Shown here: positions 1-24,150 of the stretch, one piece after another
How the letters are laid out: the number at the start of each line of letters is the position of its first letter
Numbering within the stretch: position 1 is the stretch's first letter
Origin: an uncultured Chloroflexia bacterium
GTDB taxonomy: Bacteria; Chloroflexota; Limnocylindria; Limnocylindrales; CSP1-4
Assembly (NCBI GenBank): GCA_963711105.1
Contig: CAVQCV010000005.1
Coordinates: 833,092-897,091 of the forward strand
Length of the DNA: 64,000 nt
Direction of reading: 5' to 3'
Made by a program: the position numbers and the translations under genes
The notes under the pieces: model-generated
What the model saw: the letters and a program-made list of their open reading frames with translations, nothing else
Database searches by the model: none
What the model was told of the DNA's origin: nothing

Positions 1-284
1 TGGTTCATGGGCTTGTTGAAGCGAAGAACGAGCGGCGCGTCGACGGCGAGTTTATCGGCGACGGGATCGGGGGCGACGGTGGGAGCGGCAGGGTCGTACG
101 GGCGAGGGGCCCGAGCGTCGATCTCCTTGGTCGGCAGGCCGAGCAGCAGCCCGGTCACGACCAGGGCGACAGCCGCCGCGGTCACGGCGAGCTGGGTGAT
201 CTTCGAGCGGCGGCCCACAAAGCGGCCGCCCAGCTCGAGGCCGGCGATCAGAACCGCGAGGACTGCGGCAGCGAACTGTCGCAT
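1..284 (-). CDS. 5' end (N-terminal ~94 aa) of a paralogous secreted Ig-like/CAP-like protein gene; the gene body runs off the left edge of the window
   Basis: The repeat copy places the same start codon at 284..282 (minus strand) and the same N-terminal TM/signal-anchor sequence as gene 453..2090. The reading frame stays open to pos 1. Confidence 0.55.
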   Translation of the reverse strand, partial: MRQFAAAVLAVLIAGLELGGRFVGRRSKITQLAVTAAAVALVVTGLLLGLPTKEIDARAPRPYDPAAPTVAPDPVADKLAVDAPLVLRFNKPMN

Positions 285-391
285 GTGTCAGTCTCCCGTC
301 ATCGATGCGCGCATGGGGCTGTGGTGGGTCACCCCGGGCGGCAGGTTACCACCACCTTCGGAAACCAGGCAAACGGGCCGGGTATGGCGCG
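1..391. repeat. Copy 1 of a perfect 391-bp direct repeat (second copy at 1807..2197); it may extend left beyond the window
   Basis: Base-by-base comparison of 1..391 with 1807..2197 shows identity across the whole stretch. The two sequences diverge after pos 391 and after pos 2197. ORFs 7..423 and 1693..2319 translate to the same peptide (MGLLKRRTSGASTASLSATG...). Confidence 0.9.
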
Positions 392-452
392 GATTGGCCG
401 GGAGTTGGCCTCGGCACGGGTGACGGCTGGGCTCGCGTCCCGCGAGTTCGCG

Positions 453-2090
453 TCAGCCGTAGAAGTCGATCGTCAGGCGGACACGCCCGCTGCTGACCCA
501 GACGCCGATGCCGGCACGATGGAAGTAGGGGTTCATGACGTTGAGGTAGTGGCCGAACTCGCACTGGCCGCTCTTACAGCGGTACTCGTTCTGGAAGAAG
601 ATCTCCGAGTCGATCATTCCGGACGATGTCGCGGACGGCGGCCGGGTGATGTTCTCGCCCCACGAGCCGCCCGGGTAGCCGGCCGAGGCCATTCGGCTGT
701 GCGGCGTCCCGACGAGGTAATGGGTCAGGACGTTGCGGTCGGCCATCAGCTTCGAGTACGGCCGGGCGACCTTGTTGGAGATACCGGCGTCAAGGCGGAT
801 CGGGTCCTGGGCCGGCAGGACATGGTGCGTGACTGAACTGCAGGTACCGCCGCGCGTCACCCAGCCGCCGGTCCGGGTGCAGTTGATCAGGCCCAGCATG
901 TACACCTCGGCGGCGTGCCACGGCGCCGATGTGGACGCCACATTGTTGTTCCAGGGAGTGATGTACCGGACCGTCGCCTTCACGACCTTGAAGGTGCCGG
1001 TGACGGTCTTGCCGATGCGCTGGCCGCCCTTGGAGCGGGCCGTCGAAGCGACCTTCATGGTGACGGTGCTGCCCACGGCGAACTTGGAGCTCGGATCGAG
1101 CACCAGGACTGTGTCGTTCTCGGCCCAGCCGACGGAGCCGCGAACGCGCTTGCCGTTGACGTAGACGCCGAAGGCTGCCGCGGTCGAGGCTCGATCCATC
1201 GGGGTGCTGAAGCGGACGCTGATGACCTGGTTGGGGTCGGCGGTGGTGTGGCCGTCGAGAGGCCGGAAGCGGGTGACCTGGGGCGCTTCCATGGTCGTGA
1301 TGGACAACGGCTCGACCGGCAGCAGGGCCACGCCCGAGGCGTCGGTGGCGTTGTTGGAGTCGAAGCTGATGGTGTAGGTGGTGCCGCCGTCAAGGCCGTC
1401 CTGCGGGGTGAAGGTGAAGACCTGGGAGGACACGTCGGTCGGGTCGTCGCCGGTGATGGTGCCGGTCACGGGCGGGCTGAAGGACAGCCGGGCCTGGACG
1501 GTGGCGAGCTTGACCGGCCGGGTGAAGGTCAGAACGAAGCCCGAAGAGGGCGAGACCTGGCCCGATACGGTCAGGCTGGCGGTGATCTTGCCCGAAGTCA
1601 GCTCGCCTGTGGCAAAGCGGGTCGAGACGGACTCGTCGATGACCATGCCCGATTGATCCATGGCCGTCTGGGCGATGCCGAGCGAATAGTCCGTGAAGGG
1701 CTCCCAGTACGTGGCGGGGGTGATCGAGAGGGTCTCGGCGGTGGAGTCCCAGACCAGCCGCACGCTCGTGGCCGGGCTGATGGACAGGGCGTCTGCCACG
1801 CTGCCCTGGTTCATGGGCTTGTTGAAGCGAAGAACGAGCGGCGCGTCGACGGCGAGTTTATCGGCGACGGGATCGGGGGCGACGGTGGGAGCGGCAGGGT
1901 CGTACGGGCGAGGGGCCCGAGCGTCGATCTCCTTGGTCGGCAGGCCGAGCAGCAGCCCGGTCACGACCAGGGCGACAGCCGCCGCGGTCACGGCGAGCTG
2001 GGTGATCTTCGAGCGGCGGCCCACAAAGCGGCCGCCCAGCTCGAGGCCGGCGATCAGAACCGCGAGGACTGCGGCAGCGAACTGTCGCAT
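453..2090 (-). CDS. Secreted or membrane-anchored protein with tandem bacterial Ig-like (SbsA/Big_5-type) repeats and a C-terminal CAP/SCP-like domain (tentative)
   Basis: 545-aa ORF. The N-terminal hydrophobic anchor is AVLAVLIAGLELGG...VALVVTGLLLGL. Repeated S/T-rich beta-rich segments follow (LVLRFNKPM, ISFDSNNATDASG, VISVRFSTPMDRAS), typical of SbsA-Ig-like domains. The C-terminal region contains GHYLNVMNPYFHRAGIGVWV, which resembles the CAP motif GHYTQVVW. Confidence 0.6.
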   Translation of the reverse strand: MRQFAAAVLAVLIAGLELGGRFVGRRSKITQLAVTAAAVALVVTGLLLGLPTKEIDARAPRPYDPAAPTVAPDPVADKLAVDAPLVLRFNKPMNQGSVADALSISPATSVRLVWDSTAETLSITPATYWEPFTDYSLGIAQTAMDQSGMVIDESVSTRFATGELTSGKITASLTVSGQVSPSSGFVLTFTRPVKLATVQARLSFSPPVTGTITGDDPTDVSSQVFTFTPQDGLDGGTTYTISFDSNNATDASGVALLPVEPLSITTMEAPQVTRFRPLDGHTTADPNQVISVRFSTPMDRASTAAAFGVYVNGKRVRGSVGWAENDTVLVLDPSSKFAVGSTVTMKVASTARSKGGQRIGKTVTGTFKVVKATVRYITPWNNNVASTSAPWHAAEVYMLGLINCTRTGGWVTRGGTCSSVTHHVLPAQDPIRLDAGISNKVARPYSKLMADRNVLTHYLVGTPHSRMASAGYPGGSWGENITRPPSATSSGMIDSEIFFQNEYRCKSGQCEFGHYLNVMNPYFHRAGIGVWVSSGRVRLTIDFYG

Positions 2091-2197
2091 GTGTCAGTCT
2101 CCCGTCATCGATGCGCGCATGGGGCTGTGGTGGGTCACCCCGGGCGGCAGGTTACCACCACCTTCGGAAACCAGGCAAACGGGCCGGGTATGGCGCG
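1807..2197. repeat. Copy 2 of the 391-bp direct repeat; it covers the 5' 284 nt of CDS 453..2090 plus ~107 bp of its upstream region
   Basis: Identical to 1..391. It contains the start codon (2090..2088, minus strand) and the signal-anchor coding part of the downstream gene. Confidence 0.9.
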
Positions 2198-2267
2198 CGT
2201 GCGCTTTCCTGCACTTTCATGAACCTCCGGCCGCTTCGCGGCCGGGCACCGGCGTGCCTTTGGACCG

Positions 2268-3713
2268 TCAGCCAACTGGCTTGCCGGGCCATCTGGCCAA
2301 AGCCCCGGCGGCCATGTAGCGGCCGTACGCTCCCGTCACCAGACCCTTCAACTCCAGCATCGTCAACACGCTCAGGACTGTGGCGCTGGGCAGGCGGACG
2401 AGGGCGGCCAGTTCGTCGGCCGTCGCCGGACCCTCCTTGAGCCGCTCGGCGACGCTGCGCTCCACGGGGCCCAGAGCGGCCAGAACGCCGGCAGGACCCG
2501 CTCCCCGAGCTGACGACTCCGGCCGCGATCCGCGGACCGGCGCCTCGTCCTTCGCGACGCCCGCGAGTTCCAGGTCCTCGAGGAGCTCCGGTATGCCGGC
2601 CACGAGTCGCGCTTCGCCGGCGAAGCTGCGCAGGAACAGATGACAACCCTCGCTGGCTGCCGAATCCATTGGGCCGGGCACCAGGAAGCAAGCCCTGCCC
2701 TGCTCCAGGGCCCAGCCGGCCGTGATCAGGGCCCCGCTTCTCCGCCCGGCTTCGACCACGACGGTCGCGTCCGACAGGCCGCTCACAACCCTGTTGCGGC
2801 GCGGGAAGGTGCCACGCGTAGCCGGCGTATCCGGCGGCAGTTCCGCGACCACCGCCCCGCCCGCCGCCACGATCTCGTCGGCGAGCCGCTCGTGCGCACG
2901 GGGAAACAAATGAGCGTGGCCGCCGCCGAGGACTGCGACGGTGGGTCGGCCCTCGGCGACTACGGCGGCGTGGGCGACCCCGTCGATGCCGACGGCCAGG
3001 CCCGAGACGACCACCGCGCCCGCCTGAGCAAGGGCCGAGCCGATCCAGCAGGCGATCTTGCGCCCTCGGTCGGTCGGCGAGCGCGTGCCGACCACCGCGA
3101 CGGCCGAGGGCGCCGATAGAGACGCAACGTCGCCGCGCACGAACAGCAGTGGTGGCGGCATGTCCACCTGCCTCAGCCGCTCCGGGTACTCGCCATCGTC
3201 GAGGGTCACGACCTGCAAGCCGTGCGCCCTGACCGACCTCAGGATGGTCTCGGCACCCGCGACGTGGTCGGCGAGCCGACGCGCCAGCTCGGCGCTCATC
3301 GCCAAGTCCTCATCGTTCTGCGGCGCCCGGATGTCGTCTCGCCCACGCCCGGCGGCCAATTCCGCAGCGGGCCCGAGCGCATGTCCGATCTGCCGTTCCG
3401 CTGCCCAGCCGCCGGCTGCGGCAAGCACTCCCCTCGCGGTTCCGAAGGCACCGAGCAACCGCGCGAACGTCACCGGCCCGAGCCCCGGGGCGGTGAGAAG
3501 GATTACCCAGGCCTCCCGCTCGGGATCTCGGGAGTCGAGCGATCGAACGACAGGCGGTCGCGCCGGCCCGGGCATGCACGCCTCAGCCCCTGCCGCCGGC
3601 GCTGCCTCCGGCGGGCGCGCCACCGGGTCCAACGCGTCGAAGTCCCCCTCTGCCACGCGCTTCGGGGCCGCCCGGAGGTCGCGCATCGGGCCGAGGCTCT
3701 GAACGCCGAGCAT
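2268..3713 (-). CDS. dprA: DNA processing protein DprA (Smf); the start codon may be internal
   Basis: Conserved DprA motifs are present: TAPGLGPVTFARLLGAFG, VVGTRSPTDRGRKIA, VVSGLAVGIDGVAHAAVVA, TVAVLGGGHAHLFPRAH, and a C-terminal winged-helix. The gene lies immediately downstream of the ComM-like gene, a conserved synteny. Confidence 0.85.
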   Translation of the reverse strand: MLGVQSLGPMRDLRAAPKRVAEGDFDALDPVARPPEAAPAAGAEACMPGPARPPVVRSLDSRDPEREAWVILLTAPGLGPVTFARLLGAFGTARGVLAAAGGWAAERQIGHALGPAAELAAGRGRDDIRAPQNDEDLAMSAELARRLADHVAGAETILRSVRAHGLQVVTLDDGEYPERLRQVDMPPPLLFVRGDVASLSAPSAVAVVGTRSPTDRGRKIACWIGSALAQAGAVVVSGLAVGIDGVAHAAVVAEGRPTVAVLGGGHAHLFPRAHERLADEIVAAGGAVVAELPPDTPATRGTFPRRNRVVSGLSDATVVVEAGRRSGALITAGWALEQGRACFLVPGPMDSAASEGCHLFLRSFAGEARLVAGIPELLEDLELAGVAKDEAPVRGSRPESSARGAGPAGVLAALGPVERSVAERLKEGPATADELAALVRLPSATVLSVLTMLELKGLVTGAYGRYMAAGALARWPGKPVG

Positions 3714-24075: not shown

Positions 24076-24150
24076 TGGTAGCGGAGACTGGATTTGAACC
24101 AGTGACCAAGGGCTTATGAGTCCCCTGCTCTACCACTGAGCTACTCCGCC
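24076..24150 (-). tRNA. tRNA-Met (anticodon CAU); tRNA-Ile2(LAU) cannot be excluded from sequence alone
   Basis: The minus-strand sequence is GGCGGAGTAGCTCAGTGGTAGAGCAGGGGACTCATAAGCCCTTGGTCACTGGTTCAAATCCAGTCTCCGCTACCA. It has a 7-bp acceptor stem, a GTTCAAATC T-loop, a CTCATAA anticodon loop and an encoded CCA. Confidence 0.85.

What the first reader, a model, noticed from the sequence alone, without database searches (positions are those of the whole stretch)
1..2197. Perfect 391-bp direct repeat marking a tandem duplication of a secreted Ig-like/CAP-like protein gene
Positions 1..391 and 1807..2197 are identical. The repeat spans the promoter-proximal region, the start codon and the first 94 codons (signal anchor) of gene 453..2090. 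It predicts a second, upstream paralog whose body lies off-window. 100% identity over 391 bp indicates a very recent duplication, ongoing gene conversion or an assembly collapse/expansion. The encoded product is itself unusual: a membrane anchor, several Ig-like beta domains and a C-terminal CAP/SCP-like domain.
Basis: seen in the sequence. Interest (0 to 1): 0.55.

Follow-up and report, generated by a model that had tools for sequence, protein, structure and literature searches.

The report
Gene-converted tandem surface-protein paralogs
The 391-bp perfect repeat is the visible end of a roughly 1.2-kb block (promoter region, membrane anchor and three Ig-like domains) that gene conversion keeps identical between two old, adjacent surface-protein genes with different CAP-type end domains; this is a clear but ordinary example of a known evolutionary process.

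Summary
Window 1-391 equals 1807-2197 exactly, and it is the only long repeat in the window. It is cut off by the window edge. The off-window paralog exists (P0002, on the same 1.35-Mb contig) and is identical to gene A (453-2090, minus strand) for exactly 374 residues, then only about 61% identical. The true repeat is therefore about 1.23 kb (inferred). The closest relative (L004) has a 1,236-bp perfect repeat with the same ends. The duplication is not recent. Between paralogs, C-terminal "head" dS is 0.5-0.9, while "stalk" dS is 0-0.09. Orthologous stalks differ between genomes (51 nt, dS 0.14), although the two copies within each genome are identical. The same pattern recurs in at least five Chloroflexota lineages, with three head clades (H1, H2, H3) paired differently. 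This is concerted evolution by gene conversion, limited to the leader, anchor and Ig stalk, and ending in the linker before the head. The predicted architecture is confirmed: helical anchor, three Big_5 Ig-like domains and a CAP/SCP fold. Single-copy variants match pop-out deletion between the repeats, or assembly collapse. The closest analogue is Leptospira ligA/ligB. It is a new member of a known kind and of modest interest.

The parts
1..391 (-). Repeat copy belonging to gene B. It is cut by the window edge and holds 107 bp of leader plus codons 1-94 of the off-window paralog.
   Evidence: Identical to 1807-2197. It translates to the first 94 residues of P0002.
1..284 (-). 5' end of gene B (H2-head paralog, equal to protein P0002, 543 aa). 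The rest of the gene lies left of the window.
   Evidence: tblastn gives 94/94 identical residues. P0002 lies on a contig of the same length, 1,347,117 bp, as the contig carrying gene A.
285..391 (-). Leader of gene B inside the repeat. It holds a -35-like TTGCCT (367-372), an extended -10-like TGGTAACCT (343-351) and an RBS GGGAGA (292-297).
   Evidence: These motifs are conserved in all 14 leaders aligned. Promoter function is inferred, not shown.
392..452 (-). Unique spacer between the stop codon of gene A and the start of the repeat copy of gene B.
   Evidence: No similarity to 2198-2267.
453..968 (-). Head-coding part of gene A (codons 375-545 plus stop): linker and CAP/SCP-like domain of clade H1. 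This part is not homogenised.
   Evidence: About 61% amino-acid identity to the head of P0002. CAP fold. Head tree.
969..2090 (-). Stalk-coding part of gene A (codons 1-374): two N-terminal helices and three Big_5 Ig-like domains. This is the inferred full extent of the converted coding tract.
   Evidence: 374/374 residues are identical to P0002. Big_5 x3. Domain limits from the AF2 model. The L004 repeat ends at the same codon.
1807..2197 (-). It is the 5' 391 bp of an inferred repeat of about 1,229 bp (969-2197).
2091..2197 (-). Leader of gene A inside the repeat: -35-like TTGCCT (2173-2178), TGGTAACCT (2149-2157), RBS GGGAGA (2098-2103).
2198..2267 (-). Unique spacer between the dprA stop codon and the repeat.
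2268..3713 (-). dprA, the conserved gene upstream of the pair (context only).
   Evidence: Pfam DNA_processg_A, 230 bits. Same synteny in L004, L005, L026, L027 and L028.

Best explanation
Two adjacent, same-strand paralogs (A = 453-2090; B starts at 284 and runs off the window) encode membrane-anchored extracellular proteins. Each has a helical N-terminal anchor, a stalk of three Big_5 Ig-like domains, a short linker and a C-terminal CAP/SCP-type head. The duplication is old and the two heads have diverged (clades H1 and H2). Recurrent non-reciprocal homologous recombination (gene conversion) between the tandem copies keeps about 1.2 kb identical: roughly 107 bp of leader with the promoter-like elements and RBS, plus codons 1-374. 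On the 5' side the tract ends where the unique flanks begin. On the 3' side it ends in the linker, where an indel and about 70% nucleotide identity stop heteroduplex extension and where selection keeps the two heads distinct. A by-product is that crossover between the direct repeats deletes one unit and leaves a single gene with the upstream region of A and the head of B. Shown: the repeat, the paralog, stalk identity with head divergence, the within-genome versus between-genome pattern, and the fold. Inferred: nucleotide identity beyond the 391 bp in this genome, the recombination mechanism, promoter function, extracellular location and the ligand-binding role of the heads.
For: (1) Window A and P0002 are identical for 374 residues and then diverge. 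L004 A/B share the same boundary and a perfect 1,236-bp repeat. (2) dS, stalk vs head, within a genome: L004 0.003 vs 0.52; L005 0 vs 0.63; L010 0.09 vs 0.92. (3) Orthologues WIN_A and L004_A differ at 51 stalk nucleotides (dS 0.14). Within the first 284 coding nucleotides there are 21 differences, 7 of them changing the amino acid, yet A equals B in each genome. The non-coding leader behaves the same way. (4) Heads group by type across lineages (A-type 76-83%, B-type 73-84%, A vs B 60-71%), while stalks group by genome (93-100% within, 64-90% between). NJ trees agree. (5) L010 is a mosaic: 901 bp perfect, then about 85% to codon 374, then about 65%. That implies several conversion events with different end points. 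(6) More pairs show the same signature: P0003/P0005 (stalk 100%, head 64%) and P0022/P0023/P0054. (7) dN/dS of heads is 0.08-0.23 between orthologues and 0.34-0.55 between paralogs, so both heads are functional and have diverged. (8) L007 equals L005 minus exactly one 1,846-bp unit, with 1 mismatch in 8,708 bp.
Against: DNA to the left of window position 1 could not be retrieved. For codons 95-374 of this genome only protein identity is shown, so synonymous differences there cannot be excluded. De Bruijn assemblers and polishers can force near-identical repeats to read as 100% identical, so 'perfect' may be overstated in some loci. L008 shows 98-100% identity with a frameshift. No read-level data are available. 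The trees are NJ without bootstrap. Gene conversion itself is inferred from pattern and not observed.
Confidence: 0.85

Rival explanations
1. A very recent whole-gene tandem duplication that has not yet had time to diverge.
For: 100% identity over the visible 391 bp.
Against: The 3' third of the two genes has dS 0.5-0.9 and about 62% amino-acid identity. The pair is present in L004, whose orthologue has already diverged (stalk dS 0.14). Head types are shared among lineages only about 65% identical.
Confidence: 0.02
2. An assembly or polishing artefact: a collapsed or expanded repeat, or two slightly different copies made identical by the software.
For: Short-read contigs break at the repeat edges (L026, L027, L029, L020-L023). 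Single-copy versions with otherwise identical flanks exist (L007). Graph assemblers traverse one collapsed node twice, which yields exact identity by construction.
Against: The two-gene arrangement with different heads recurs in at least six independent assemblies from different samples and pipelines, including a 1.35-Mb contig. Head types A and B are conserved by position. The graded mosaic in L010 cannot be produced by collapse. An artefact could inflate 98-99% to 100%, but it could not create the pattern.
Confidence: 0.05
3. Repeated domain shuffling: in each lineage a recent duplication was followed by replacement of one head through horizontal transfer or illegitimate recombination, rather than homogenisation of old paralogs.
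For: Different lineages carry different head pairs: H1+H2, H3+H1 and probably H3+H2. The junction always lies in the same linker.
Against: Within each head clade the branching broadly follows the stalk and genome tree, which indicates vertical descent of heads. The mosaic in L010 shows stepwise homogenisation. The model needs many independent events with the same junction. Gene order is consistent with loss from an H3-H1-H2 array.
Confidence: 0.07
4. Strong purifying selection alone keeps the stalks identical.
For: Many stalk residues are conserved across the family.
Against: Synonymous sites and the non-coding leader are also identical within genomes but diverged between genomes (stalk dS 0.14-0.41).
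Confidence: 0.01

Closest known systems
Leptospira ligA / ligB (leptospiral immunoglobulin-like proteins)
   Same: These are paralogous surface proteins built of bacterial Ig-like domains. Identity starts upstream of the start codon (-266, including the -35/-10 elements) and extends far into the coding region (+1890, inside the 7th Ig-like domain). Beyond that point the 3' parts are unique (PMC7821625). The layout is the same: shared promoter and stalk, different distal part.
   Different: Lig proteins use Big_2 domains and, from my own knowledge, a lipoprotein anchor. Here the domains are Big_5, with a helical membrane anchor and a CAP head. According to the review cited, ligA arose by duplication of ligB with loss of the C-terminal region, whereas here both copies keep a complete but divergent head. 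The organisms here are uncultured, presumably free-living Chloroflexota, not pathogens. This is an analogy, not homology.
Long-lasting concerted evolution of prokaryotic paralogs (Wang & Chen 2018, PMC6053082; classic example tufA/tufB, from my own knowledge)
   Same: Paralogs are more alike within a genome than orthologues are between genomes, and the pattern recurs across divergent lineages.
   Different: Those cases mostly involve whole genes for core pathways or complexes. Here the conversion is partial and domain-bounded, it includes the promoter region, and it affects an uncharacterised surface protein.
Bacterial CAP/SCP (PF00188, YkwD-like) extracellular proteins, e.g. B. anthracis 4ifa, S. 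aureus SAV1118 (4h0a), Borrelia BB0689 (4d53), Enterococcus PrgA CAP domain (6z9k)
   Same: The C-terminal 155 residues adopt the CAP alpha-beta-alpha fold (Foldseek E 5e-6 to 2e-2; TM-score 0.79 normalised to BB0689).
   Different: Sequence similarity is marginal: Pfam CAP scores 13.1 bits for A and 24.5 bits for B. The combination with a three-domain Big_5 stalk and an N-terminal anchor did not appear among the solved structures retrieved. No biochemical function can be transferred.

Membership tests
Concerted evolution by interlocus gene conversion | Paralogs within a genome are more similar than orthologues between genomes | tested here: met
   Stalk identity is 93-100% within genomes and 64-90% between them. 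The stalk tree groups by genome.
Concerted evolution by interlocus gene conversion | Identity extends to synonymous and non-coding sites, which excludes selection alone | tested here: met
   Stalk dS is 0-0.09 within a genome and 0.14-0.41 between orthologues. Leaders are identical within genomes but differ between them.
Concerted evolution by interlocus gene conversion | Discrete tracts with sharp or mosaic boundaries next to old divergence | tested here: met
   There is a sharp drop at codon 374 in the window lineage (protein level), L004 and L005. L010 has a 901-bp perfect tract, then about 85%, then about 65%.
Concerted evolution by interlocus gene conversion | Direct demonstration of conversion events or dependence on recombination proteins | not testable with these tools
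   This needs reads, population data or genetics.
Recent tandem duplication | Uniform near-identity over the whole duplicated unit | tested here: not met
   Head dS is 0.52-0.92 and head identity is about 61-65%.
Big_5 bacterial Ig-like domain (PF13205) | Score above the Pfam gathering threshold | tested here: met
   109.4 bits against a cut-off of 23.6, in three stretches. The AF2 model has three beta-sandwich domains at about 70-161, 167-266 and 272-369.
CAP / SCP / PR-1 superfamily (PF00188) | Score above the Pfam gathering threshold | tested here: inconclusive
   Gene A scores 13.1 bits, below the 21.1 cut-off. Paralog B (P0002) scores 24.5, and P0043, P0047 and P0026 score 22.9-29.2, above the cut-off.
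CAP / SCP / PR-1 superfamily (PF00188) | Alpha-beta-alpha sandwich fold | tested here: met
   The model has pLDDT 85 and pTM 0.82. The top 39 Foldseek PDB hits are all CAP proteins, the best at E 5.5e-6.
CAP / SCP / PR-1 superfamily (PF00188) | Conserved His/Glu metal-binding tetrad (as I recall the CAP motifs) | tested here: inconclusive
   W477-G478-E479-N480, E496, E502, H514-Y515 and N403..R406 are invariant in 39 sequences. No His precedes N403, and no structural superposition was done.
LigA/LigB-type paralog pair | Homology to Lig proteins (Big_2 repeats) | tested here: not met
   Pfam finds Big_5 (and Big_10 in relatives), not Big_2. The resemblance is in organisation only.

The most novel reading that the evidence does not exclude
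The locus may be a modular 'one stalk, exchangeable heads' system. An ancestral array of three genes (heads H3-H1-H2) would share a recombination-proficient kilobase. Recombination across that kilobase would not only homogenise the stalks but also repeatedly delete and re-create head units. Populations of these soil and peat Chloroflexota would then vary in which CAP heads they display (H1+H2, H3+H1, H3+H2, or one head). That would amount to a slow, RecA-driven cassette repertoire in a free-living bacterium.
Probability: 0.15. Interest if true: 0.5.

Novelty: new member of a known kind. Interest (0 to 1): 0.3.

Why it matters
This is a clean, multi-lineage example of partial, domain-bounded concerted evolution in uncultured Chloroflexota. 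It shows that a perfect repeat need not mean a recent duplication. It explains why short-read assemblies of this locus break or collapse. It also defines an uncharacterised family of anchored proteins, each with three Ig-like domains and a CAP head, with three head types whose maintained divergence suggests distinct ligands. It does not reveal a new mechanism.

Tried and rejected
- Exact-protein look-ups for window genes A, dprA and the response-regulator gene, and for P0002, found no indexed contig. The DNA left of the window therefore could not be read.
- The genome and metagenome scans did not contain the source genome.
- The leader was tested as a structured RNA. Rfam found nothing (isrK at E=0.68 is noise) and RNAalifold gave no covariation (term +0.19). 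This idea was rejected.
- The strict sigma-70 and terminator scan found nothing in 1-2400. The promoter proposal rests only on conserved motifs.
- A single-sequence PDB search with the head gave only chance hits to LuxR-type regulators. A profile search gave weak hits to LdtMt2 Ig-like domains (E 1.2e-3) and BB0689 (E 0.098). The fold search settled the question.
- A literature search for bacterial CAP/YkwD proteins returned unrelated 'cap domain' papers.
- GC and GC3 content gave no clear sign of biased conversion: GC3 was about equal in stalk and head.

Full report
**1. The observation.** Window 1-391 and 1807-2197 are identical, and identity ends at 392 vs 2198. A self-BLAST of the 64-kb window (GC 68.6%) shows this is the only long repeat. 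On the minus strand the repeat holds 107 bp of leader, the ATG and the first 94 codons of ORF 453-2090 (545 aa). The copy at 1-391 opens an identical reading frame (ATG = complement of 282-284) that runs off the left edge. Because the repeat begins at window position 1, its real length cannot be read from the window.

**2. The missing paralog.** Exact look-ups of the window proteins in the gene-position index failed. The cluster look-up, however, shows that gene A's product (P0122) and P0002 (543 aa) each occur on one NCBI/ENA contig of 1,347,117 bp.
- P0002 starts with the 94 residues encoded at 284-3.
- It is identical to gene A for exactly 374 residues, and then only about 61% identical.
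- P0002 is therefore gene B of this genome. The window edge is not a contig end.
- The repeat is inferred to be about 107 + 1,122 = 1,229 bp (969-2197 for the A copy).

The closest relative, L004 (ENA ERZ25039495 contig_59906; A is 97% identical), has this gene order: dprA, A (545 aa), B (543 aa), a 179-aa ORF, topA, xerC, femAB, Mur ligase. Its A and B share a perfect 1,236-bp repeat from -115 to codon 374, followed by 50-90% nucleotide identity per 50-column block (mostly 60-80%).

**3. The duplication is old and the stalk evolves in concert.** Tandem pairs with the same anatomy occur in several lineages.

| Locus or pair | Shared 5' block |
|---|---|
| L005 / L006 | 1,197 bp perfect, -74 to codon 374 |
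| L010 / L019 | 901 bp perfect, then ~85% to codon 374, then ~65% |
| L008 | ~1.3 kb at 98-100%; B has a frameshift |
| P0003 / P0005 | stalk 100%, head 64%; L029 shows they are adjacent |

Nei-Gojobori dS within a genome:

| Genome | Stalk dS | Head dS |
|---|---|---|
| L004 | 0.003 | 0.52 |
| L005 | 0 | 0.63 |
| L010 | 0.09 | 0.92 |

- The orthologues WIN_A and L004_A differ at 51 stalk nucleotides (dS 0.14) and have head dS 0.27.
- In the visible 391 bp, the window and L004 differ at 21 coding positions (7 amino acids), and the leader differs too. Yet A equals B in each genome.
- Identity at synonymous and non-coding sites within genomes, with divergence between genomes, excludes purifying selection alone and excludes a recent duplication. 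It is the signature of gene conversion.
- Head dN/dS is 0.08-0.23 between orthologues and 0.34-0.55 between paralogs, so both heads are functional and differentiated.

**4. Heads versus stalks.** Pairwise identities and NJ trees show that stalks group strictly by genome, whereas heads fall into three clades:
- H1: WIN_A, L004_A, P0003, the B genes of L005, L008 and L010, and the single genes of L001, L012 and L009.
- H2: WIN_B (P0002), L004_B, P0005, P0006, P0039, P0043, P0047.
- H3: the A genes of L005, L008 and L010, plus P0030 and P0004.

Observed gene orders are:
- dprA-H1-H2-topA in the window, L004 and L026 + L029.
- dprA-H3-H1 in L005, L008 and L010.
- dprA-H3 followed by the start of a further copy in L027.
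- H2-topA in L028.

All are compatible with an ancestral H3-H1-H2 array that lost one unit differently in each lineage. This is a hypothesis: the trees are NJ without bootstrap.

**5. Tract boundaries.**
- The 3' end lies at codon 374 in the window lineage (protein level), in L004 and in L005. Identity stops abruptly at '...ACGGT' and is followed by an indel-rich stretch.
- The full-length AF2 model (pLDDT 84.6) places helices at 2-23 and 28-49, a disordered segment at 50-62, Ig-like beta sandwiches at about 70-161, 167-266 and 272-369, a low-confidence linker at about 370-391, and the CAP domain at 392-544. The tract therefore ends at the junction between stalk and linker.
- The 5' end lies at -107 (window), -115 (L004), -74 (L005) and -76 (L010).

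**6. Leader.**
- All leaders share a TTGCC element, then (18 nt in the window) TAACCT preceded by TGG, a GC-rich stretch of about 58 nt, and an invariant GGAGACTGACA just before the ATG (GGAGACTGACACATG in 12 of the 14 leaders).
- I read these as -35, extended -10 and RBS elements. If so, each gene has its own promoter, and in the window lineage the two promoters are identical. This is inferred. The strict consensus scan found nothing.
- No structured RNA is supported.
- The sequence 5' of the -10 element comes in an A-type and a B-type.

**7. Single-copy variants.**
- L007 is L005 minus exactly one 1,846-bp unit, with 1 mismatch in 8,708 bp. It has the upstream region of A and the head of B.
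- L009 has the same hybrid make-up: A-type upstream with an H1 head. L028 has an H2-head gene directly after dprA and before topA.
- L001 and L012 are B-type at both ends.
- The hybrids are what crossover between the direct repeats would leave. They are equally what an assembler produces when it skips the loop.
- Short-read contigs often end at the repeat edges (L026, L027, L029, L020-L023).
- Assemblers may also force near-identical copies to 100% identity, so 'perfect' should be read as at least about 98-99% until reads are checked.

**8. The protein.**
- Big_5 scores 109 bits.
- The head model (pLDDT 85, pTM 0.82) hits only CAP/PR-1/SCP structures in its top 39 Foldseek matches. These include GAPR-1, Na-ASP-2, B. 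anthracis 4ifa, BB0689, the PrgA CAP domain and SAV1118.
- Pfam CAP is sub-threshold for A (13.1 bits) and above threshold for B (24.5 bits).
- The hydrophobic segment at about 29-52 follows RRSK, which fits an N-in, C-out anchor with an extracellular stalk and head (topology inferred).
- The function of bacterial CAP domains is not established. My best guess is a ligand- or metal-binding head held away from the membrane by the Ig stalk.

**9. Context and taxon.** The window order nfeD, band-7, response regulator/ParA-like, comM, dprA, A, B matches the relatives. Named relatives are Chloroflexota MAGs: Ca. Limnocylindrales, 'Chloroflexia' and Chloroflexota.

**10. Comparison and verdict.** The closest analogue is Leptospira ligA/ligB, where identity runs from -266 (including -35/-10) to +1890 inside an Ig-like domain and the 3' parts are unique (PMC7821625). 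[quoted passage not shown] The finding is real and well explained. It is a new member of a known kind, with modest interest.

Noticed in passing
window 343-351 / 2149-2157, 367-372 / 2173-2178, 282-296 / 2088-2102 (minus strand): The leader has blocks conserved across lineages: TTGCCT, 18 nt, TAACCT (preceded by TGG), and GGAGACTGACA just before the ATG, invariant in all 14 leaders aligned (the full GGAGACTGACACATG in 12 of them). They look like a promoter and RBS. No RNA-structure covariation was found.
   Followed up: partly
L007 (whole), L005 4155-6000; also L009 and L028: Some loci have a single gene with the upstream region of A and the head of B. L007 equals L005 minus exactly one 1,846-bp unit. 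This is either a real pop-out deletion between the direct repeats or an assembly collapse.
   Followed up: partly
L026 end, L027 end, L029 start, L020-L023 starts: Short-read metagenome contigs repeatedly end at the edges of the repeat, either in the leader of the next copy or near codons 312-379. This locus is probably under-assembled or mis-assembled in many MAGs.
   Followed up: partly
heads of L004, L005, L008, L010, P0003-P0006 (residues ~378-545): There are three head clades (H1, H2, H3) paired differently in different lineages. Gene orders fit an ancestral H3-H1-H2 array with differential loss. No three-copy genome was found among the loci held.
   Followed up: partly
WIN_A vs L004_A; L005 vs L010 orthologues: Between orthologues, stalk dS is consistently lower than head dS (0.14 vs 0.27; 0.41 vs 0.64; 0.34 vs 0.83). 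This is unexplained. It could reflect codon constraints or an effect of conversion between two copies.
   Followed up: no
L004 6465-7004, L005 7793-8305: A conserved small ORF (170-179 aa, no Pfam hit, N-terminus MLKDVVIHLHNEQP...) lies between gene B and topA in some lineages. It is absent in L028 and L029, where topA follows gene B directly.
   Followed up: no
L008 1-5828 and 8077-9481: In L008 the region upstream of comM/dprA holds an N6_N4 methyltransferase and an AAA_25 gene that are not seen in the other loci. Gene B there is split by a frameshift (called as 397 aa). This may be a long-read error or a pseudogene.
   Followed up: no
window 24076-24150 (minus strand): tRNA-Met (CAT) is the only RNA gene that Rfam and ARAGORN detect in the 64-kb window.
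   Followed up: no
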